Positions 1 through 32,811 of a stretch of 32,811 bases of DNA are shown here, piece after piece. Position 1 is the first letter of the stretch. Each line of letters begins with the position of its first letter. The notes beneath the pieces are model-generated. The model saw nothing but the letters and a program-made list of their open reading frames with translations, was not told the origin of the DNA and did not search any database. The stretch lies in the IMG/VR virus record IMGVR_UViG_2563366806_000002. One strand, written 5' to 3'. This DNA is from a virus (taxonomy: Duplodnaviria > Heunggongvirae > Uroviricota > Caudoviricetes). Position numbers and translations under genes: made by a program.

Positions 1-981
1 TCACACCGCCAGCCCGCCGCCAAGTGGGTTTAATGTCACCGCGTGTTGCAGGTAATCGGGGGCGAGGTGAGCATAAACCATCGTTTGCTGAATGCTCGCA
101 TGACCCAGAATCTGCTGTAACGCGATAATGTTACCCCCGTTCATCATGAACCAGCTCGCGAACGTGTGCCGGAGCACATGCGTAGCCTGCCCGCGTGGCA
201 AGTCTGGTTTAACCTGCCTGAGCCGTTCGCAGAAGTTTTCATAATCAACTTTGAACAATGGCCCGGTGTCACTGGTCTTGATCTCCTTCTCCAGCTCTGC
301 CGATATTGGAACCGTTCGCTTTTTCCCGTTTTTGGTTTTGAGGAACGTCACACGCCCATGGTTAACCTGCTCACCTCGCAGGGTGCTGCCTTCTCCCCAA
401 CGTGCGCCAGTGCTGAGGCATAACAGCGCCACGCGCCGATCATCGCCGGTCAGGGTATCCAGCAGCTTGCTGATCTCTGATTTGGCGAGATAGGTCATAG
501 CTGGCGGCGCTTCTTTCAGTGGTTCCAATCCCTTGCAAGGATTCTCCTTCCTGAACTCATCCAGCTTAATCAACGTGCTGAACATGCCGGAAAAACGGTA
601 TATATCCCGGTTGATCGTTGCGGCGCTGATCCCGTCATCCAGTCGTTGGCTACGGTGCCGGGCGATGGTGCGCTTATCAAGCCGGTTAACTGCTGGATCT
701 CCCAACGCCCTGATTGTCTTTTTCAGGTGCCGCTTTTCTATCTCACCATTTTCCTGAGTCTGCCCATATAGCAGCCACCAGGTATCTAACAACTCGCTCA
801 ACGTGCGGCGGTCTACGCTCGCGCCAAGCCATTCTTTTTTATCAGCGTTAGCTAATACATAACGCTCAAAAAGAACCGCCTCTTGTTTCTTTTCAAATCG
901 CCTGCGGATGCGTTTTCCATTACGCCCACGGGGCCATACGTCTACTTCATACTGACCACCCTCGAGCTTCTTAATCGACAT
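1..981 (-). CDS. int: P2-like tyrosine integrase (stop codon at 1..3)
   Basis: 326-aa ORF with tyrosine-recombinase C-terminal signature (HVLRHTFASW...GHASIQQTMVYAHL); sits at the prophage end, divergent from cox as in P2. Confidence 0.9.
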   Translation of the reverse strand: MSIKKLEGGQYEVDVWPRGRNGKRIRRRFEKKQEAVLFERYVLANADKKEWLGASVDRRTLSELLDTWWLLYGQTQENGEIEKRHLKKTIRALGDPAVNRLDKRTIARHRSQRLDDGISAATINRDIYRFSGMFSTLIKLDEFRKENPCKGLEPLKEAPPAMTYLAKSEISKLLDTLTGDDRRVALLCLSTGARWGEGSTLRGEQVNHGRVTFLKTKNGKKRTVPISAELEKEIKTSDTGPLFKVDYENFCERLRQVKPDLPRGQATHVLRHTFASWFMMNGGNIIALQQILGHASIQQTMVYAHLAPDYLQHAVTLNPLGGGLAV

Positions 982-2149: not shown

Positions 2150-2377
2150 ATGAACGATAACGCCCCATCACTTGCCAGCCTGTTAAAGCACGGTTGCCAG
2201 GTCACGCACTACCGCAATACACGCGGCTGGATTGAATGCCCGGACGGGCGTTTCTTTAAACCGGAACCGAATAAGGTGCGCTTTATTAAAGGTATGAGTA
2301 AGCCTTTTGTTTATACGAAGAAGATAAACAAAGGCTTATTTAGTGCCTTAGCAAGTTTATTTAGAAAGCTGCTTTAG
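2150..2377 (+). CDS. Hypothetical protein
   Basis: 75-aa ORF, AT-rich, third gene of the insert. Confidence 0.4.
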   Translation: MNDNAPSLASLLKHGCQVTHYRNTRGWIECPDGRFFKPEPNKVRFIKGMSKPFVYTKKINKGLFSALASLFRKLL

Positions 2378-2463: not shown

Positions 2464-2895
2464 ATGTTTGGCATGTTCAAGAAAAAAACTGCTGCTGTAA
2501 AAGTTGAATTAAAGAAAGTTGAAAATCGCGATTTGATGGAGGCCATTGTTGGTGGCTGTCTGCTGGTTGCTGCTGCTGATGGTGAAATTGAGAAAGAGGA
2601 AACCGCAAAGCTCGATCAGCTGCTGCGCTCCAATCCCCGCCTGAGCCATTACGGCAACGAAATCACCGCACTGATCACCCGTTTCACTGAACAGCTTGAG
2701 GCAGGTTTTCGCGTTGGTCGCATGAACATCCTGCGTGAAATCGAAGATATCAAAAACGACCCGAAAGAAGCGGAGGAAGTCTTCGTCAACATGCTGACCA
2801 TTGCCGAATCTGACGGCGAGATCGAGCCGGAAGAACAAAAGGTACTGGAAGAGGTTGGGCGTCGTCTGGGCCTGCGCGTTGAGGATTACATCTGA
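2464..2895 (+). CDS. TerB-like (tellurite-resistance TerB family) protein
   Basis: 143 aa with two DGEIE(K/P)EE repeats typical of TerB-like helical proteins; RBS AAAGGGG upstream. Confidence 0.5.
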   Translation: MFGMFKKKTAAVKVELKKVENRDLMEAIVGGCLLVAAADGEIEKEETAKLDQLLRSNPRLSHYGNEITALITRFTEQLEAGFRVGRMNILREIEDIKNDPKEAEEVFVNMLTIAESDGEIEPEEQKVLEEVGRRLGLRVEDYI

Positions 2896-3555: not shown

Positions 3556-3624
3556 CCACTGAATGATTAACCAGTAGTCAGGCGCATCACCGCGCCGGGC
3601 TTCCTGCACCCAGGAGAAAGCAAG

Positions 3625-4566
3625 ATGATTCGATCACTACTCAAATGGCCCGGTGGCAAAAGCCGCGTGATGCCTGAATTACTCCCGCATTTACCAAAGG
3701 CTGGTTGCCTCGTGGAGCCTTTTGTTGGCGGCGCTTCCGTGTTCCTCAATACCGATTATCGCCGCTATATCCTTGCGGATATCAACCCAGACCTGATCCG
3801 CCTTTATCGTGAGGTGAAGAGCAATCCTGAGCTGGTTATTGACCTTGCCCGCCCGCTCTTTGCGACCGGCAATTCCAAAGAGGAATACTTACAGAACCGC
3901 CGCATTTTCAACGGTACTAAAGGCTTGCTTGATGTGGCCCGCGCGGCTCTGTTTCTTTACCTCAACCGCCACGGCTACAACGGCGTGGTGCGTTACAACC
4001 AGAGCGGCGGTTATAACGTGCCGTTTGGTCAGCATAAAAGCGCGCCTTACTTCCCGGAGGCGGAGATCCGGCAGTTTGCTGAGAAGGCCAACGACACCAA
4101 AGCCATTTTCTTGTGCAGCTCGTTTCAAAATACCCTCAAAGTGATGGTTGGAACGGATGAAGCCATCTACTGCGATCCGCCATACCTGCCTGCCAGCGAA
4201 ACCGCCAATTTCACTCAATACCACACCGAGCCATTCACCGAGCAGCACCACCGCCAGTTAGCGGCGGAGCTGCTGGAAGTGAACCGCAAATATGGCGCGC
4301 CGGTTGTCATTTCCAACAGTGACACCGAAACCACCCGCGAGATTTACCACCGTTTCCGCCTGCATGAAATCGACGTGCAGCGCTCTGTTAGTACTGACGC
4401 CAGCAACCGCCAGAATGCTAAAGAGGTGATCGGCGTTCTCAAGGTATGCGAAGGGTGCGGGCGCGCGGGCGGAGGCAACTGCCCGGACTGCGGGCCGTGC
4501 TGTGGTGATGCCACTTACAACGCGATGGTTGCAGCGGGCGCTTTTGATGAGCAAGGGGGTTTCTGA
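3625..4566 (+). CDS. dam: Dam-family N6-adenine DNA methyltransferase with Cys-rich C-terminal tail
   Basis: Strong similarity to E. coli Dam (LKWPGGK, CLVEPFVGGASVFLNTD, LFLYLNRHGYNG, DPPY motif); extra tail CEGCGRAGGGNCPDCGPCCGD. Confidence 0.9.
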   Translation: MIRSLLKWPGGKSRVMPELLPHLPKAGCLVEPFVGGASVFLNTDYRRYILADINPDLIRLYREVKSNPELVIDLARPLFATGNSKEEYLQNRRIFNGTKGLLDVARAALFLYLNRHGYNGVVRYNQSGGYNVPFGQHKSAPYFPEAEIRQFAEKANDTKAIFLCSSFQNTLKVMVGTDEAIYCDPPYLPASETANFTQYHTEPFTEQHHRQLAAELLEVNRKYGAPVVISNSDTETTREIYHRFRLHEIDVQRSVSTDASNRQNAKEVIGVLKVCEGCGRAGGGNCPDCGPCCGDATYNAMVAAGAFDEQGGF

Positions 4567-4802
4567 TGGCGAGCTTAATTGAATTTTTAGAGGCGGTTGG
4601 TCTGGAAAATGTGACCGTTCAACCACTTCACCAGTGCATTACGGGCGTAGCGATGGAGAGAAAAGGCGGTGCCAAAGTCAGCTTTTTGACCAATGAAATA
4701 ACCCCATCTGATGCATTCGGAGAGATGAAAAGAACGGCGTTCATCGTCTGGATGGACGCTAAGAAGTTTGATGCCGCACTTGAAAAAACGAAGGGCAAAT
4801 GA
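4566..4802 (+). CDS. Hypothetical protein
   Basis: 78-aa ORF, stop/start overlap with dam (TGATG). Confidence 0.5.
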   Translation: MASLIEFLEAVGLENVTVQPLHQCITGVAMERKGGAKVSFLTNEITPSDAFGEMKRTAFIVWMDAKKFDAALEKTKGK

Positions 4803-5014
4803 GCATGAAACAGAATAAGAGCGCGGTTTTATCATCAATCCAAAATGTTGCTGTTTTCTTCAATTACGGCGGTGAAACAGTAGCGTTAAAAATGACAGCC
4901 GAACAAAAGAGAGTGATCGGCCTGTTTGCTATTTCAGCCGTTGAAGGTACTGCGGAACTGGTGCGGGTGCCTCATTTGTCATTACCAGCAGATCCAGAAA
5001 TGGAGGCTCTGTAA
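4799..5014 (+). CDS. Hypothetical protein
   Basis: 71-aa ORF, ATGA overlap with the upstream gene. Confidence 0.5.
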   Translation: MSMKQNKSAVLSSIQNVAVFFNYGGETVALKMTAEQKRVIGLFAISAVEGTAELVRVPHLSLPADPEMEAL

Positions 5015-5322
5015 TGTCAAAAATCTATATCGCTGGCCCAATGAGCGGTTTGCCTGGCTTTAATCGCCCGGCGTTTCACCGTGCAGCCGCGCACATTGTA
5101 CGGCGCGGAAATGTTGCTCTTAATCCGGCGATCCTGCCGGATGGCTTAGAGCAAGCGGAGTATGTGGATATCTGCCTTGCCATGCTTCGCTGCGCTGATG
5201 GCATCTTCATGCTGGACGGTTGGCAGCAGTCTGCTGGGGCAAAAGCAGAATACGCGCTTGCTGAAAAGTTGGGGCTGGATATTCAGCACCAGATGATTGA
5301 TCGGTACGTGGGCGCACGATGA
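5014..5322 (+). CDS. DUF4406-like (nucleoside 2-deoxyribosyltransferase-like) protein
   Basis: 102 aa, IYIAGPMSG motif; translationally coupled on both sides. Confidence 0.55.
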   Translation: MSKIYIAGPMSGLPGFNRPAFHRAAAHIVRRGNVALNPAILPDGLEQAEYVDICLAMLRCADGIFMLDGWQQSAGAKAEYALAEKLGLDIQHQMIDRYVGAR

Positions 5323-7928
5323 CCACCGCAGCAAGTGGGCGTGGCGCTCCAACGCCGCCCCATCCGTATCCGGGTAGCGCACCAGACGCCACCCGGTACG
5401 CTTACGAATGGCAGAAGCCGAAAGCTGCCATTTGTGTTGATAAGACTCCCGTTGTTGATCTAGTCGAGCTGGGTCAAGAACAGGAGTTTTTGGCGTGGGT
5501 GAAAGTTACCCTTGCGCCGCTACCTCGCTTTATTCGCCTGCGTCTGGCTTCCCGCATTGACAGTATTCACACCATGAAGGGCAGACACATCGCCCGTCTG
5601 GCGCTACGCGATATCATTCGCAGGGATCTGCCACCCATCAACATGGTTAATGAGCAATACGCTATTGCGATGACCGATGAGGCTGAATCTCAGGCTGATA
5701 CAGCATTCAAAGGGGTAAACCCGCTTTACCACACGTTTAACACTCTTCACGGATTGGTTGAGCGCTTTAACCGCCTGCCGGACTTCACGCCGGAAGATGT
5801 TGAGCTGCTGGCGCAGGATATTGCTATCTATATGCGGTCTGTGCTGAGCGAAGTTCACGAGACGGTAGAGACGCAGAGTGATCGCAAATATGCCGAATAC
5901 CTTTACACCGAAGCGGCTATCCTCGCGCGGCTTTTCTTCCTGACGCCTCCAAGCTGGGAAAAGTATTGCCGGGGCGCGCTGTTTATTGATGAAGCTACTA
6001 CCGGCATCAGAAAGATGCTGGATGATCGCTATTGGCACCGTAACCTGAAAAAGTACGCTGCGCGCTGGCGCGAGCACCTGCACATTGCCTTTGGTGACGT
6101 GAAGCGGGGCGCTGCACCGTATTGCAGTAAGCACCATGTTGATGAGTGGGATGCCAGGCGTAAACGTAGCCGCGCGATCATGGCCCGTCTTGAACTGGAA
6201 GACCAGGACACCAAAGAGCGCATTTCACTTATTGAGCAGATCGATAAGAGCATTTCTAACCCGGCATTGCGCCGCGTTGAACTCATGACCCGCATTGGTG
6301 GTTTTGAGAAAGTAGCCACCGAAAGCGGCTATGCAGGCCAGTTTTTTACTCTGACAGCACCATCCAAATACCACGCCTATACCGTATTCGGTCATCGTAA
6401 TGCCAAATGGAACGGTGCCAGCCCAAGAGCAACGCAGCGCTACCTTAACCGGGTATGGCAAAAGATTCGTGCTGAGCTTGCCCGCCGTGAAATTCCGGTC
6501 TTTGGCCTGCGGGTGGCTGAGTCACACCACGATGGTACGCCGCACTGGCACGGCCTGTTGTTTTCCCTGCCGGAACATTCCGCCGAGTTGCTGGAAGTTA
6601 TGGAAGACTACGCAACCCGTGAGGATGCGGAAGAATTACAAGGTAAACACGGCAACCAACCGCGCTTTGATATGAAGCCGATCGATCATGAAATCGGCAG
6701 CGCCACCGGCTACGTGGTGAAGTACATCAGTAAGAATATTGACGGCTACGCGCTCGACGGCGAAACGGATGACGAGAGCGGCAGGCCACTGAAAGAAACA
6801 TCAAAACACGCTACCGCCTGGGCATCGTGCTGGGGCATCCGTCAGTTTCAGTTTTTGGGCGGTGCGCCGGTATCTGTCTGGCGTGAGCTGCGCCGGTTCC
6901 GCAATCAGGAGCAGGCCGACAAGATAAACCCGCTGTTTGCTGAGCTGCACCGCGCAGCGGATGCTGGCGACTGGCAGCAATACACCAAATTGCAGGGTGG
7001 GGCGCTGGTTGCCCGCCGTGATCTACCGTTGCGCATCTGGTACCAGCAGAAAGAAGAGCCAAATGATTACGGCGAGTATCTGGATCTTATTAAAGGTCTG
7101 GTGATGCCCGCTGCTCACATCCCACCAATTGAAACCCGCCTGCATACCTACCGCATTGTGCGTAAGAAACCGGAGGTTTTAGACGACTCCGGGCAGGCCG
7201 TTGACTTTGATTTTGACCTTCGGGGCGCGTCCGCGCCCTCTAGGACTCGTGTCAATAACTGTACTGAGGTCAAAAAACATACAAATTCAGGGGGTGACAA
7301 TTCGCCACCAGTTGAGCCTGAACAGTATGAAATTGGTCAAATGACCCACGAGCAGAAAAAACGGCTCAATGAAAGCATCAGAAACTACAAACCGGAACGG
7401 CAAAAATCACCTGCTGATGAGTTTGAGGCGCTGGCTAATGCCATTACGGCATCAGATTGTGATGATATTGAGCAGGCCAGGGCGGAGAGCTATCTAAAAG
7501 TTGCTCAAGAATTGAGGCAGCAGGAAAGGGATATGCCTGCTGTTACCGCGCCAGCTCCTATATCAGCCGATCGCATTGCGGCACTGGATGATTTTGCCAG
7601 ATCAATAGGCATAGAGCTGAGCACAGGCCAGTTATCGTTATTGCTACGCGGTGAGTGTTTGCGAATTGATGGCTTTATTGTCTCCGCAACCAGTAGCGGA
7701 GAGCTGAGACGCAGAAAAGATAACAGCGCTGACCGGAAGACCGCCGATTTGTGGCAGCATATGAAGCTAAGTCATAATGTTGACAGCAGAGATATCAGGC
7801 ATGATCCCGTTGGCAGCTATGCGGAAATGTTGAAAAAAGCTGATCCGGCTGCGTGGGACAGGTTGTTTGGTACCAGGAATCAGGAGCAGCGCGTATGTTT
7901 GACGAAGAACAGCGAGAGCAGGAAGTAA
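5319..7928 (+). CDS. A: Replication initiation endonuclease (P2 gpA-like rolling-circle initiator) with long C-terminal extension
   Basis: 869 aa; HUH-type segment ESHHDGTPHWHGLLF and catalytic Tyr region YVVKYISKNIDGY. Confidence 0.9.
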   Translation: MTTAASGRGAPTPPHPYPGSAPDATRYAYEWQKPKAAICVDKTPVVDLVELGQEQEFLAWVKVTLAPLPRFIRLRLASRIDSIHTMKGRHIARLALRDIIRRDLPPINMVNEQYAIAMTDEAESQADTAFKGVNPLYHTFNTLHGLVERFNRLPDFTPEDVELLAQDIAIYMRSVLSEVHETVETQSDRKYAEYLYTEAAILARLFFLTPPSWEKYCRGALFIDEATTGIRKMLDDRYWHRNLKKYAARWREHLHIAFGDVKRGAAPYCSKHHVDEWDARRKRSRAIMARLELEDQDTKERISLIEQIDKSISNPALRRVELMTRIGGFEKVATESGYAGQFFTLTAPSKYHAYTVFGHRNAKWNGASPRATQRYLNRVWQKIRAELARREIPVFGLRVAESHHDGTPHWHGLLFSLPEHSAELLEVMEDYATREDAEELQGKHGNQPRFDMKPIDHEIGSATGYVVKYISKNIDGYALDGETDDESGRPLKETSKHATAWASCWGIRQFQFLGGAPVSVWRELRRFRNQEQADKINPLFAELHRAADAGDWQQYTKLQGGALVARRDLPLRIWYQQKEEPNDYGEYLDLIKGLVMPAAHIPPIETRLHTYRIVRKKPEVLDDSGQAVDFDFDLRGASAPSRTRVNNCTEVKKHTNSGGDNSPPVEPEQYEIGQMTHEQKKRLNESIRNYKPERQKSPADEFEALANAITASDCDDIEQARAESYLKVAQELRQQERDMPAVTAPAPISADRIAALDDFARSIGIELSTGQLSLLLRGECLRIDGFIVSATSSGELRRRKDNSADRKTADLWQHMKLSHNVDSRDIRHDPVGSYAEMLKKADPAAWDRLFGTRNQEQRVCLTKNSESRK
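7221..7240. other. GC hairpin (GGGCGCG-tc-CGCGCCC) followed by AT-rich DNA inside the 3' part of A; candidate replication origin
   Basis: Palindrome read from sequence; in P2 the ori lies within the 3' part of gene A (recalled). Confidence 0.35.
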
Positions 7929-30613: not shown

Positions 30614-30856
30614 ATGGCAATGCGCTGTCCTCGCTGCCGTGCAGTTGCGAAAACTCGTACCAGTGTAGAGTTGAGTGATTTAGTGCGACGCAGTTATCAC
30701 CAGTGTCAAAACATGTTGTGCGGCTACTGCTTTACCAGCATGACGCAAATAGACGAATCATTAAACCAGACTCAGCCAGTCCCCGGCGCGGTGGTTCCTC
30801 AAGACGTTTTCCCGCGAAGTCATCACGGCGAAGATCAGCTTAGTCTGGTGTTGTAG
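30614..30856 (+). CDS. ogr: Ogr/Delta-family zinc-finger late transcription activator
   Basis: CPRC...YHQCQNMLCGYCF matches the Ogr zinc-finger pattern CPLC...YHQCQNVNC. Confidence 0.85.
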   Translation: MAMRCPRCRAVAKTRTSVELSDLVRRSYHQCQNMLCGYCFTSMTQIDESLNQTQPVPGAVVPQDVFPRSHHGEDQLSLVL

Positions 30857-30870
30857 TTTCGAAGCAAGGC

Positions 30871-30900
30871 AAAAGCCTGCCGGACAGGCAGGCTTATTGT
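30871..30900. terminator. Bidirectional hairpin terminator between ogr and the convergent downstream gene
   Basis: AGCCTGCC-ggaca-GGCAGGCT stem, A-run on one side and T-rich on the other. Confidence 0.6.
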
Positions 30901-31622
30901 TATTGCAGTTCTTTCAGTTCAACAATCTTACCAGTGGCTATATCTACTTTAGCGGAAACGGTGTTTTTTACCGTTGCCCCAAGAGCATTTGCGCCACGGA
31001 ATGTTGTCACAAATACTGCATATGGTTTTTTGTCTTTCTCAAACATTAATTGATGGGTGGTTTTGATATGTTTGTAGGATGAGTCATCGTTCATCTGTTC
31101 TTTGATCGCGACCTCTAAGGGGTAGTAGACGCCGTTATAGTCGCTCAGCATTTCATCGAAATTATCAAAATTTATACGGTCAGAAAGAGATGTTGCATCG
31201 CGGGTAAAATCTGAGTAACACCAATCAAGCACTTGATCGAGGTGTAGTTCTTCCGATTTTCTATGAGAATATTCGCTTAGGCAGTTGTAGAAGTCATTAC
31301 GTGCAGATTCAGGGATCTTTTTAAATTTAACATACGAGTTAACAATTTCGCGTCTGTCTTCCTTATCGTTCTTAACTCTCCATTCCTTTAGTGATAAATC
31401 GGCGTATTTAAATTTTTCTTCTTTAATCGGTGGGCGTTCTTGAGCGTTGCTTGAGGTAGAAGGGCGTAAACTGGCCCCTATTGCAGCAACGACTAAGCAC
31501 ATTGAGAAGTAGAAAAGAGACGATTTTTTTCTGTTTGGCATGAAAACCCACTTTGGATTTATAAGCCCGATCCAGAAAGCGATACCGGCTATCGCTGCAA
31601 TGATAGTGATGATTTTTTCCAT
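30900..31622 (-). CDS. AT-rich membrane-anchored protein of unknown function (candidate cargo/moron)
   Basis: 240 aa; two N-terminal hydrophobic helices then a charged soluble domain; strong RBS GGAGGG; clearly lower GC than flanking DNA. Confidence 0.6.
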   Translation of the reverse strand: MEKIITIIAAIAGIAFWIGLINPKWVFMPNRKKSSLFYFSMCLVVAAIGASLRPSTSSNAQERPPIKEEKFKYADLSLKEWRVKNDKEDRREIVNSYVKFKKIPESARNDFYNCLSEYSHRKSEELHLDQVLDWCYSDFTRDATSLSDRINFDNFDEMLSDYNGVYYPLEVAIKEQMNDDSSYKHIKTTHQLMFEKDKKPYAVFVTTFRGANALGATVKNTVSAKVDIATGKIVELKELQ

Positions 31623-31827: not shown

Positions 31828-31908
31828 ATCCTCAATTTGCCTGCTGCTTAATGCATTGCAGATGATTTGCTTCCGTTATACTAGCGTCAGTTGATAGCGG
31901 GAGTATTT

Positions 31909-32811
31909 ATGAATCAATCTTATGGACGGCTGGTCAGTCGGGCGGCGATTGCTGCGACGGCGATGGCTTCGCTGCTATTGCTGATTAAAATTTTTGCATG
32001 GTGGTATACCGGGTCGGTGAGTATTCTCGCCGCGCTGGTGGATTCGCTGGTGGATATCGGCGCGTCGTTGACGAATTTACTGGTGGTGCGATATTCCCTG
32101 CAACCTGCCGACGATAATCACTCGTTTGGTCACGGTAAAGCTGAGTCCCTCGCGGCGCTGGCGCAAAGTATGTTTATCTCCGGTTCAGCACTATTCCTGT
32201 TTTTGACGGGTATTCAACATCTGATATCTCCAACACCGATGACAGATCCAGGCGTCGGGGTTATCGTGACAATTGTGGCGCTAATTTGTACGATTATCCT
32301 TGTCTCGTTTCAGCGTTGGGTGGTGCGCCGGACGCAAAGCCAGGCGGTGCGGGCTGATATGCTACATTACCAGTCTGATGTTATGATGAACGGCGCAATT
32401 CTGCTGGCGCTGGGGTTGTCCTGGTACGGCTGGCATCGCGCCGATGCTCTGTTTGCATTGGGAATCGGCATCTATATTTTATATAGCGCGTTACGCATGG
32501 GATATGAGGCGGTACAGTCATTACTGGATCGCGCATTACCTGATGAGGAACGGCAAGAAATTATTGATATCGTGACTTCCTGGCCGGGTGTTAGCGGCGC
32601 TCACGATCTTCGCACGCGGCAGTCAGGGCCGACCCGCTTTATTCAGATTCATTTGGAAATGGAAGACTCTCTGCCTTTGGTTCAGGCACATATGGTGGCG
32701 GATCAGGTAGAGCAGGCTATTTTACGGCGTTTTCCGGGATCGGATGTGATTATCCATCAGGACCCCTGTTCCGTCGTACCCAGGGAGGGTAAACGGTCTA
32801 TGCTTTCATAA
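31909..32811 (+). CDS. fieF: Cation-diffusion facilitator FieF/YiiP (ferrous iron / zinc efflux), host gene
   Basis: Translation from ATG 31909 ([54 protein letters not shown]...) matches enterobacterial FieF as recalled; stop at window end. Confidence 0.95.

What the first reader, a model, noticed from the sequence alone, without database searches (positions are those of the whole stretch)
3625..4566. Phage Dam methylase with an unusual cysteine-rich C-terminal tail
The first ~270 aa are clearly Dam-like (GATC N6-adenine methyltransferase, DPPY motif), but the protein ends with about 45 extra residues containing CxxC...CxxCxxCC, absent from E. coli Dam as recalled. This may be a metal-binding extension; a phage-borne orphan methylase could protect against restriction or alter host gene regulation.
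Basis: partly seen in the sequence, partly recalled or inferred. Interest (0 to 1): 0.45.

Follow-up and report, generated by a model that had tools for sequence, protein, structure and literature searches.

The report
Prophage Dam methylase with portable four-cysteine tail
This is an ordinary GATC-type DNA adenine methylase of a P2-like prophage, but its tail holds a small, probably zinc-binding, four-cysteine module that is also found in RecE and other phage DNA enzymes and that I found described nowhere.

Summary
ORF 3625-4566 (+) encodes a 313-aa Dam-family methyltransferase. Residues 1-273 align with E. coli Dam, and residues 274-313 are an extra tail reading CxxC-x7-CxxC-x2-CC.

The tail is not peculiar to this phage. 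88 of the 119 closest full-length cluster representatives carry the same CxxC...CxxC core. Host Dam and seven close relatives lack it. Only four cysteines (C275, C278, C286, C289) are conserved. The final 'CC' sits where relatives have V/A/C then M/C.

The new point is that the core, C-x2-CG-x2-GG-x(1-2)-CPDCG-x3-G-D-A-T-Y, is a portable module. It recurs in:
- DnaQ-like exonuclease fusions
- a small protein of a Mu-like early region
- small phage proteins with no Pfam domain

Pfam and NCBIfam have no model for it, and my literature searches found no description. It is under purifying selection (pN 0.15-0.23 with synonymous sites saturated). The DNA mosaic breakpoint falls exactly at the start of the tail.

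Best reading: a GATC methylase carrying a zinc-stabilised, acidic docking module. Metal binding and the partner are inferred, not shown. Interest is moderate.

The parts
3612..3616 (+). Shine-Dalgarno AGGAG, 8 nt upstream of the start codon
   Evidence: Read directly from the sequence.
3625..4566 (+). dam gene, 313 codons plus the TGA stop
   Evidence: ORF list and translation. Matches Pfam PF02086 and TIGR00571.
3625..4443 (+). Catalytic Dam core, aa 1-273 (the D12-class Pfam domain covers aa 8-254). SAM-binding motif EPFVGGASVF is at aa 31-40.
   Evidence: Aligns with E. coli Dam residues 5-269, E 5.6e-76. The AlphaFold model has mean pLDDT 83.6 and TM 0.93 to PDB 4rtk/2g1p.
4174..4185 (+). 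Catalytic DPPY motif, aa 184-187
   Evidence: Invariant in 64 relatives. Aligned with the DPPY of E. coli Dam.
4425..4443 (+). Mosaic recombination junction at the conserved EVIGVLK strand, just before the tail
   Evidence: Nucleotide identity to four related prophages (L008, L009, L010, L013) is 90-98% over 3625-4424. From about 4425 it falls to 16-74%.
4447..4518 (+). Four-cysteine module, aa 275-298: CEGCGRAGGGNCPDCGPCCGDATY. The conserved candidate ligands are C275, C278, C286 and C289.
   Evidence: These cysteines are invariant or >=90% conserved. The module has homologues in RecE, DnaQ-like exonucleases and small phage proteins. pN is 0.15-0.23 against pS 0.7-1.0.
4498..4503 (+). The extra cysteine pair C292-C293
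   Evidence: Relatives have V/A/C/S then M/C at these two positions. The pair is therefore not a conserved ligand pair.
4507..4533 (+). Predicted short helix, aa 295-303 (DATYNAMVA)
   Evidence: DSSP on the AlphaFold full-length model; pLDDT here is only 63-70.
4543..4563 (+). Acidic C-terminal tip FDEQGGF, ending in Phe
   Evidence: Among long tails of relatives, 95 of 105 are net negative and 78 of 105 end in a hydrophobic residue. The pattern aromatic-x(4-6)-hydrophobic-COOH is present in 23 of 57 type-A tails.
4566..4802 (+). Downstream 78-aa ORF, probably translationally coupled through the TGATG overlap. It is part of the variable cassette 4425-5322.
   Evidence: It has no Pfam match. 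It is not conserved next to type-A tails in other prophages.

Best explanation
The gene encodes an orphan GATC-type N6-adenine DNA methyltransferase. It sits between cox and replication gene A on the same strand, in what is the early operon of P2-like phages; expression was not tested.

**Core.** Residues 1-273 do the chemistry as E. coli Dam does: S-adenosyl-methionine binding, base flipping, DPPY catalysis.

**Tail.** Residues 274-313 are a separately inherited accessory unit with three parts:
- a 15-residue pair of knuckles, CxxCG...CPDCG, whose four conserved cysteines most likely hold one structural zinc ion
- a short conserved GDATYxxM segment, weakly predicted as a helix
- an acidic end finishing in phenylalanine

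The same cysteine module sits in unrelated phage DNA-handling proteins, and it is acidic rather than basic. It therefore most likely acts as a small docking tag that ties its carrier enzyme to a common partner protein, not as part of catalysis or DNA recognition.

**Status of each step.**
- Shown: Dam-family membership, the domain boundary, conservation, selection, and portability of the module.
- Inferred: GATC specificity, metal binding, the docking function, and the identity of the partner.
For: **Dam identity**
- Pfam and TIGR00571 hits are above their cut-offs.
- 44-46% identity and TM 0.93 to solved E. coli Dam.
- DPPY, the FxGxG motif, K7, R123 and P133 are invariant in 64 relatives. 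K7, R123 and P133 align with E. coli K9, R124 and P134.

**The tail is a separate unit**
- Alignment with E. coli Dam stops at residue 273.
- Catalytic cores that are 93-96% identical carry a type-A tail, a truncated other tail, or none.
- Nucleotide identity collapses at about 4425, the first codons of the junction.

**Metal site**
- C275, C278, C286 and C289 are invariant or >=90% conserved, along with G282-G284, P287 and D288.
- The CPDCG knuckle matches rubredoxin knuckles.
- The whole motif matches the 15-residue N-terminal zinc ribbon of MtrI (9qtr_i) at a borderline E of 0.025. Zinc binding by MtrI was shown by ICP-MS (PMC12774963).

**Portability**
- The same module is in K-12 RecE residues 517-540.
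- It is in PDDEXK/DUF3799 exonucleases and Rv2179c-like 3'-5' exonuclease fusions.
- It is in a small protein of a Mu-like early region.
- It is in an Aeromonas phage protein.
- It is in small proteins matching phrog_6680 or phrog_27803.
- It occurs at the N-terminus, in the middle, or at the C-terminus of its carriers.

**Selection**
- Synonymous sites are saturated (pS 0.7-1.0) while pN is 0.15-0.23. This holds even between the Dam and RecE copies.

**Acidity**
- The window tail has net charge -4. Tails of relatives average -4, with 95 of 105 negative. The RecE segment scores -12.
Against: - No metal, methylation or binding assay was possible.
- AlphaFold gives only moderate confidence for the tail in the full-length model (pLDDT 63-70) and low confidence for the tail alone (58). 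Foldseek then finds nothing.
- The MtrI and rubredoxin matches are at motif level and are not statistically secure.
- No candidate partner was identified. No downstream gene co-varies with the tail.
- Tail-less relatives exist, so the tail is dispensable for having a working gene in at least some prophages.
- The C-terminal tip is much less conserved than the cysteine core.
Confidence: 0.5

Rival explanations
1. The tail mimics the C-terminus of the host single-strand-binding protein SSB (...DFDDDIPF). Through the acidic Phe-ended tip FDEQGGF it would plug the methylase into the SSB partner network at replication forks, or compete with SSB for those partners. This is a specific version of the docking idea.
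For: - The window ends F-D-E-Q-G-G-F-COOH. As recalled, E. coli SSB ends F-D-D-D-I-P-F-COOH, with the same spacing.
- 23 of 57 type-A tails keep aromatic-x(4-6)-hydrophobic-COOH, and 37 of 57 have an acidic residue within 4 of a hydrophobic C-terminus.
- An unrelated tail subtype ends ...ESEENPIPL.
- Small ORFs just downstream of dam in related prophages end ...ADDDLPF and ...FDDGVPF.
Against: - The tip is poorly conserved. Many tails stop earlier or end in E, K or G.
- The window lacks the Pro at position -2.
- The module in RecE and the other carriers is internal and has no free C-terminus. This cannot therefore be what the conserved cysteine core is for.
- The resemblance rests on memory of the SSB sequence, not on a test.
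Confidence: 0.15
2. The tail is a zinc finger that binds DNA. It would raise the processivity of the methylase or alter its site preference.
For: - Small C4 zinc modules often bind nucleic acids.
- The carriers (Dam, RecE, DnaQ-like exonucleases) all act on DNA.
- As recalled, CcrM needs a C-terminal domain for DNA binding.
Against: - The module and its surroundings are acidic. The window tail has net charge -4, 95 of 105 tails are negative, and the RecE segment scores -12.
- The core has one Arg against E, D and D.
- Tail-less versions of nearly identical catalytic cores persist.
Confidence: 0.12
3. The acidic tail folds back onto the enzyme's own DNA-binding cleft and holds it in check until a partner or DNA displaces it. 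As recalled, the acidic tails of T7 gp2.5, T4 gp32 and SSB behave this way.
For: - The tails are consistently acidic and sit on a DNA-binding enzyme.
- Tail pLDDT is higher in the full-length model than for the tail alone (63-82 against 58). This is compatible with some packing against the core.
Against: - Model coordinates and error maps were not available, so no contact could be checked.
- It does not explain why the same module sits in small proteins that have no DNA-binding domain.
Confidence: 0.1
4. The cysteines hold an iron-sulfur cluster or form a redox-sensitive disulfide switch, rather than binding a structural zinc.
For: - This copy has six cysteines within 19 residues.
- Other tail subtypes are even richer in cysteine. 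The SEN4/5 type has 11.
- As recalled, several DNA enzymes carry 4Fe-4S clusters.
Against: - Only four cysteines are conserved.
- Their CxxCG...CPxCG spacing is that of the zinc-ribbon or rubredoxin knuckle, not the CxxCxxC...C pattern of 4Fe-4S sites.
- The closest motif match, MtrI, binds zinc.
Confidence: 0.08
5. The tail has no function of its own. It is carried along by mosaic recombination at the gene's 3' end.
For: - The breakpoint lies exactly at the tail junction.
- Tails are swapped, truncated or lost among near-identical cores.
- Some tails look like read-through into the next ORF.
Against: - There is strong purifying selection on the module with saturated synonymous sites, even between the Dam and RecE copies.
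- It is conserved in 88 of 119 relatives.
- It recurs in several unrelated protein contexts.
Confidence: 0.05

Closest known systems
E. coli Dam (GATC N6-adenine methyltransferase; PDB 2g1p, 4rtk)
   Same: - Same fold and family: 44-46% identity, TM 0.93.
- DPPY and the SAM-binding motif are shared.
- The residues aligned with the DNA-contact residues K9, Y119, N120, R124 and P134 are kept. Which residues contact DNA is from my own recall.
   Different: - It scores 288 bits against the housekeeping-Dam equivalog NF008152, below the 441 cut-off. It is therefore a phage paralogue, not the host orthologue.
- L122 is V, and R137/Y138 are Q/H.
- It has a 40-residue acidic cysteine tail where E. coli Dam has 9 residues with net charge +2.
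Dam methylases of P2-like phages (Peduoviridae): phiT5282H, SW3/SI7, SEN4/SEN5, Klebsiella ST16-OXA48phi5.4
   Same: - Same position in the early operon, upstream of gene A.
- 54-67% identity.
- Same CxxCGxxGG-CPDCG core after the EVIGVL strand.
   Different: - In the records read, these genes are annotated only as Dam or DNA methyltransferase, with no feature for the tail.
- This copy has CC where most have VM.
- SEN4/5 diverge after the second knuckle into a longer tail with 11 cysteines.
RecE (exonuclease VIII) of the Rac prophage, residues 517-540
   Same: It carries the same module, [24 protein letters not shown], followed by an acidic stretch. The match is seen with the NCBIfam RecE model and two PHROG exonuclease families.
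   Different: - The rest of the protein is unrelated. [quoted passage not shown]
- The window protein has no nuclease domain.
MtrI of Methanosarcina mazei (PDB 9qtr chain i), N-terminal 15-residue zinc ribbon
   Same: - Similar motif, CEACGRESDTKYCNDCGKVM (CxxC-x8-CxxC), against CEGCGRAGGGNCPDCGPCC here.
- Zinc binding was shown experimentally, and the protein is a small protein-binding adaptor (PMC12774963).
   Different: - The similarity is borderline (E 0.025) and probably only at motif level.
- It is archaeal and has no link to DNA.
- The function of its zinc ribbon is also unknown.
Rubredoxin-type / zinc-ribbon knuckles (CxxCG, CPxCG)
   Same: Both knuckle signatures are present. Rubredoxin CPDCGAAKSDF aligns with CPDCGPvmGDA.
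   Different: - The spacer between the knuckles is only 7 residues, against roughly 30 in rubredoxin (as recalled).
- The matches are not significant (E 0.6-1.3).
- No confident fold was obtained.

Membership tests
Dam family, D12-class N6-adenine DNA methyltransferase (PF02086 / TIGR00571) | Profile match above the curated cut-off | tested here: met
   PF02086 scores 216 bits against a cut-off of 22. TIGR00571 scores 267 bits against a cut-off of 115.
Dam family, D12-class N6-adenine DNA methyltransferase (PF02086 / TIGR00571) | Catalytic DPPY motif and FxGxG S-adenosyl-methionine motif | tested here: met
   DPPY is at residues 184-187 and is invariant. EPFVGGASVF is at residues 31-40.
Dam family, D12-class N6-adenine DNA methyltransferase (PF02086 / TIGR00571) | Dam fold | tested here: met
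   The model has pLDDT 83.6. Foldseek against E. coli Dam gives E 1e-28 to 2e-29 and TM 0.93.
Dam family, D12-class N6-adenine DNA methyltransferase (PF02086 / TIGR00571) | Methylates the adenine of GATC | not testable with these tools
   The only evidence is conservation of residues aligned with the E. coli contacts K9, R124, P134, Y119 and N120. Which residues make those contacts is recalled from the published E. coli Dam-DNA structure.
Housekeeping Dam orthologue (NCBIfam NF008152 equivalog) | Score above the equivalog cut-off | tested here: not met
   288 bits against a cut-off of 441. The gene lies in a prophage early operon.
C4 zinc ribbon / rubredoxin-type knuckle pair | Two CxxC knuckles with the CxxCG and CPxCG signatures, conserved across homologues | tested here: met
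   C275, C278, C286, C289, P287 and G290 are invariant or >=90% conserved.
C4 zinc ribbon / rubredoxin-type knuckle pair | A confidently predicted or matched zinc-ribbon fold | tested here: inconclusive
   The tail-only model has pLDDT 58 and gives no Foldseek hits. Profile matches in the PDB are borderline.
C4 zinc ribbon / rubredoxin-type knuckle pair | Binds one metal ion | not testable with these tools
   This needs ICP-MS or a chromophoric chelator assay on purified protein.
RecE / exonuclease VIII family | PD-(D/E)XK nuclease domain | tested here: not met
   Only residues 273-300 match the RecE model, at 23 bits against a cut-off of 1269. There is no nuclease domain. The two proteins share a module; the window protein is not a member of the family.
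SSB C-terminal-tip-like peptide | Acidic run ending in Pro-Phe with a free carboxylate, conserved across homologues | tested here: inconclusive
   The window ends FDEQGGF. It is acidic and ends in Phe but has no Pro. The pattern is kept in 23 of 57 type-A tails. The comparison with SSB is from memory.

The most novel reading that the evidence does not exclude
The four-cysteine module is a shared address label. Unrelated phage enzymes and small early proteins would use it to dock onto one and the same host hub, for example the SSB partner network or another replisome or repair component. The carriers include P2-like Dam, Rac-type RecE, DnaQ-like exonucleases and a Mu-like early-region protein. 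If so, it would give the first function for part of the N-terminal region of RecE, which is so far unexplained. It would also define a new class of phage targeting tag.
Probability: 0.2. Interest if true: 0.7.

Novelty: new variant of a known kind. Interest (0 to 1): 0.45.

Why it matters
Phage-encoded Dam enzymes are common, but their role is still called poorly understood (PMC7556043). Here the methylase itself is ordinary. Its tail, however, leads to a roughly 25-residue cysteine module with three notable properties:
- It is conserved under selection.
- It moves between unrelated phage DNA enzymes.
- It is present in E. coli K-12 RecE, inside what a 2023 review calls a domain of unknown function (PMC11611040).

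If the module is a docking tag, it gives a direct experimental handle on how temperate phages position methylation and recombination enzymes in the host cell. It might also explain why full-length RecE behaves differently from its nuclease domain in recombineering.

Tried and rejected
1. **Word-index homology search with the tail profile.** It returned only 15 short fragments. They were useful as seeds but gave no picture of distribution. I replaced it with the exhaustive profile search.
2. **Giant repeat proteins in the exhaustive search.** About 20 hits (for example P0136, 2337 aa, 17 stretches) match only profile positions 24-39, 'GDATYxAxF'. They have no cysteines. I rejected them as unrelated repeats.
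3. **NCBIfam heterocycloanthracin/sonorensin bacteriocin hit.** E 0.005, 17 bits against a cut-off of 35. I judged it a Cys/Gly composition effect.
4. **Tail-only AlphaFold model.** pLDDT 58, and Foldseek against the PDB found nothing. No fold assignment was possible.
5. **Pfam scan of isolated tails.** Nothing significant at E <= 10.
6. **Literature searches.** Searches for RecE plus zinc, the CPDCG motif, and cysteine-rich C-terminal extensions of phage Dam gave nothing relevant.
7. **A partner gene that travels with the tail.** The ORFs downstream of dam differ among prophages with the same tail type.
8. **GATC avoidance in the prophage.** There is none: 189 sites, against 127 expected from base composition and 202 from a Markov estimate.
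9. **A recent DNA transfer between RecE and dam.** Rejected: module nucleotide identity is only 64% and synonymous sites are saturated.

Full report

Yes. The ORF at 3625-4566 on the + strand encodes 313 residues. An AGGAG site lies 8 nt upstream of the ATG. The TGA stop overlaps the ATG of the next ORF as TGATG.

Evidence that the protein is a Dam:
- Residues 8-254 match the Pfam D12-class N6-adenine methyltransferase domain, E 7.5e-64.
- The protein passes the TIGR00571 'dam' cut-off, 267 against 115 bits.
- E. coli Dam (278 aa) aligns from query residue 3 to residue 273, E 5.6e-76.
- An AlphaFold model (mean pLDDT 83.6) superposes on solved E. coli Dam with TM 0.93.
- DPPY is at residues 184-187.

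After residue 273 come 40 residues: VCEGCGRAGGGNCPDCGPCCGDATYNAMVAAGAFDEQGGF. The pattern C..C-x(5-10)-C..C occurs only here in all six frames of the window.

**2. Setting**

The window is a complete P2-like prophage. In order it carries:
- integrase (1-981, minus strand)
- a C-type repressor, Cox, Fil and a TerB-domain ORF
- an unknown 136-aa ORF
- dam
- two unknown small ORFs and DUF4406
- replication protein A (5319-7928)
- the morphogenesis genes, then gpD and Ogr (30614-30856)
- a host cation-efflux gene at 31891-32811

The closest sequenced phages are Salmonella SEN4/SEN5, at about 78% nucleotide identity over 41% of the query. The closest genomic copies of dam are in Mixta, Pantoea and Izhakiella (95-96% protein identity), so the host is probably in the Erwiniaceae. 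No restriction enzyme lies nearby, so the methylase is an orphan. GATC is not avoided in the prophage (189 sites).

**3. How common is the tail?**

Among the 119 closest full-length cluster representatives (one further hit is a 209-aa fragment with no C-terminus), all from Enterobacterales where a source names the organism, 88 have CxxC-x(6-9)-CxxC after the conserved EVIGVL strand.

Downstream of the second knuckle the tails fall into several kinds:
- the window's kind, ...P-[VAC]-[MC]-G-D-A-T-Y-N-x-M...F (55 representatives)
- a kind ending ...ESEENPIPL (18)
- the cysteine-rich SEN4/5 kind (7)
- a fourth kind starting GIVEGCPAGGCGHC (6)
- seven representatives with no tail, 277-280 aa

Named P2-like phages carry the core too: phiT5282H, SW3/SI7 and Klebsiella ST16-OXA48phi5.4.

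The tail is therefore typical of this prophage clade but absent from host Dam. Only C275, C278, C286 and C289 are conserved, together with G282-G284, P287, D288, G290, G294, T297 and Y298. The 'CC' at 292-293 replaces VM, AM, CM, AC or VC in relatives.

**4. The tail is inherited separately from the enzyme**

Four related prophages share 90-98% nucleotide identity with the window over 3625-4424. Identity collapses at about 4425. In two of them it returns only at about 5325, the start of gene A.

Cores that are 93-96% identical carry different ends:
- a type-A tail in Mixta
- a truncated GIVEGC tail, 284 aa, in Pantoea stewartii and Izhakiella
- no tail, 275 aa, in Dryocola

The tail therefore belongs to a variable cassette together with the small ORFs at 4566-5322. 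It is not needed for an intact methylase gene to persist.

**5. The module occurs elsewhere**

NCBIfam and PHROGs matched residues 271-301 to RecE-type exonuclease models. Reading K-12 RecE shows [31 protein letters not shown] at residues 517-547, with the core module at 517-540.

A profile of the module was searched against 1.84 billion representative proteins. It gave 66 hits at E <= 0.001 and 22 at E <= 1e-10. After removing cysteine-free repeat proteins, the carriers are:
- prophage Dam proteins
- RecE-like PDDEXK/DUF3799 exonucleases
- proteins with an Rv2179c-like (DnaQ-type) 3'-5' exonuclease domain
- a 79-aa protein next to Kil, GemA and DUF3164 in a Mu-like early region
- an Aeromonas phage protein
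- several small proteins matching phrog_6680 or phrog_27803, or matching nothing

The module sits at the N-terminus, in the middle or at the C-terminus of its carriers. In the phage collection it is found in many lambdoid RecE genes and in P2-like dam genes.

Pfam and NCBIfam have no model for it. [quoted passage not shown] My other literature searches found nothing.

**6. Is it functional?**

Between the Dam copies, and between Dam and RecE, the 72-nt module is only 60-72% identical at the DNA level. Synonymous sites are saturated (pS 0.68-1.04) while pN is 0.15-0.23. This indicates long-standing purifying selection on the peptide and rules out a recent DNA transfer.

**7. What does it do?**

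*Metal binding.* The four conserved cysteines lie in CxxCG and CPxCG, the classic knuckle signatures. The PDB profile search gave two kinds of match:
- rubredoxin knuckles, not significant
- at a borderline E of 0.025, the N-terminal 15-residue zinc ribbon of the small adaptor protein MtrI. Its zinc content was measured by ICP-MS (PMC12774963).

I therefore think one structural zinc is the most likely ligand. This is inference. AlphaFold was not confident about the tail (pLDDT 63-70 in context, 58 alone), and Foldseek found no match.

*Charge.* The module and its surroundings are acidic. The window tail has net charge -4. 95 of 105 long tails are negative. The RecE segment scores -12. This argues against DNA binding. 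It favours a protein contact or an intramolecular contact with a basic surface.

*Portability.* The module recurs in proteins that share nothing else. Those with a recognisable domain are DNA enzymes, and the rest are phage proteins of unknown function. A portable docking tag is the most economical reading.

*The C-terminal tip.* Many tails end in an acidic stretch plus Phe, Leu or Trp (77 of 119; 78 of 105 long tails end in a hydrophobic residue). The window's FDEQGGF has the same spacing as the SSB tip FDDDIPF as I recall it. Some small ORFs downstream of dam in relatives end ...DDDLPF. This is a lead to the SSB partner network, but the tip is weakly conserved (23 of 57). It also cannot explain the internal copies of the module.

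**8. Function of the methylase itself**

The residues aligned with the E. coli contacts K9, Y119, N120, R124 and P134 are kept, and K7, R123 and P133 are invariant in the clade. GATC specificity is therefore the expectation.

Possible roles follow from general knowledge of phage Dam enzymes and were not tested here:
- keeping rapidly replicating phage DNA fully methylated
- escaping nucleases that cut unmethylated GATC
- escaping MutH

**9. Verdict**

But the tail is the norm in its clade, and its final cysteine pair is incidental.

What is worth keeping is the module itself. It is an apparently undescribed, selected, portable four-cysteine unit shared by P2-like Dam, RecE, DnaQ-like exonucleases and small early proteins.

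I rate the finding as a new variant of a known kind, with moderate interest (0.45).

Noticed in passing
window 4425-5322: A variable cassette lies between the dam catalytic core and gene A. It holds the dam tail plus three small ORFs: 78 aa, 71 aa and a 102-aa DUF4406 protein. Nucleotide identity to related prophages drops from over 90% to 16-74% across it. In two of them identity returns at the start of gene A.
   Followed up: partly
L017 4975-5238; L019 4840-5040: In related prophages (Kluyvera, Enterobacter hormaechei), the small ORFs just downstream of dam end in ...GYADDDLPF and ...FGFDDGVPF. These closely resemble the C-terminal tip of bacterial SSB. Some Dam tails in other relatives look like read-through fusions to the N-terminus of this ORF family.
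   Followed up: no
L005 2787-5387 (E. coli K-12 recE), protein residues 517-540: K-12 RecE carries the same four-cysteine module, [24 protein letters not shown], just upstream of its nuclease domain. This region is described in the literature as being of unknown function.
   Followed up: partly
L007 59-298: A 79-aa protein consists of a short N-terminal part plus the module. It sits directly upstream of Kil, GemA and DUF3164 genes, a Mu-like early region.
   Followed up: no
window 2464-2895: A 143-aa ORF with a TerB (tellurite-resistance) domain lies in the prophage early region, between fil and dam. I do not recall this as standard P2 cargo.
   Followed up: no
window 2150-2377 and 5014-5322: There is a homologue of the phage 186 Fil protein (75 aa), and a DUF4406 protein (102 aa) immediately upstream of gene A.
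   Followed up: no
window 30900-31622 (minus strand) and 31891-32811: A 240-aa ORF with no Pfam match lies between ogr and a host cation-efflux (CDF family) gene. It is probably prophage cargo or lies at the attachment-site boundary. The prophage seems to span from position 1 to about 30.9 kb.
   Followed up: no
L003 3001-3984 (Salmonella phage SEN5 dam): The SEN4/5 type of tail keeps the first knuckles, then continues with a much more cysteine-rich segment, CCPGIAACEEGWSFDCCGNCDICEPSDNPETW. The tail has 11 cysteines in all, which suggests more than one metal site.
   Followed up: no
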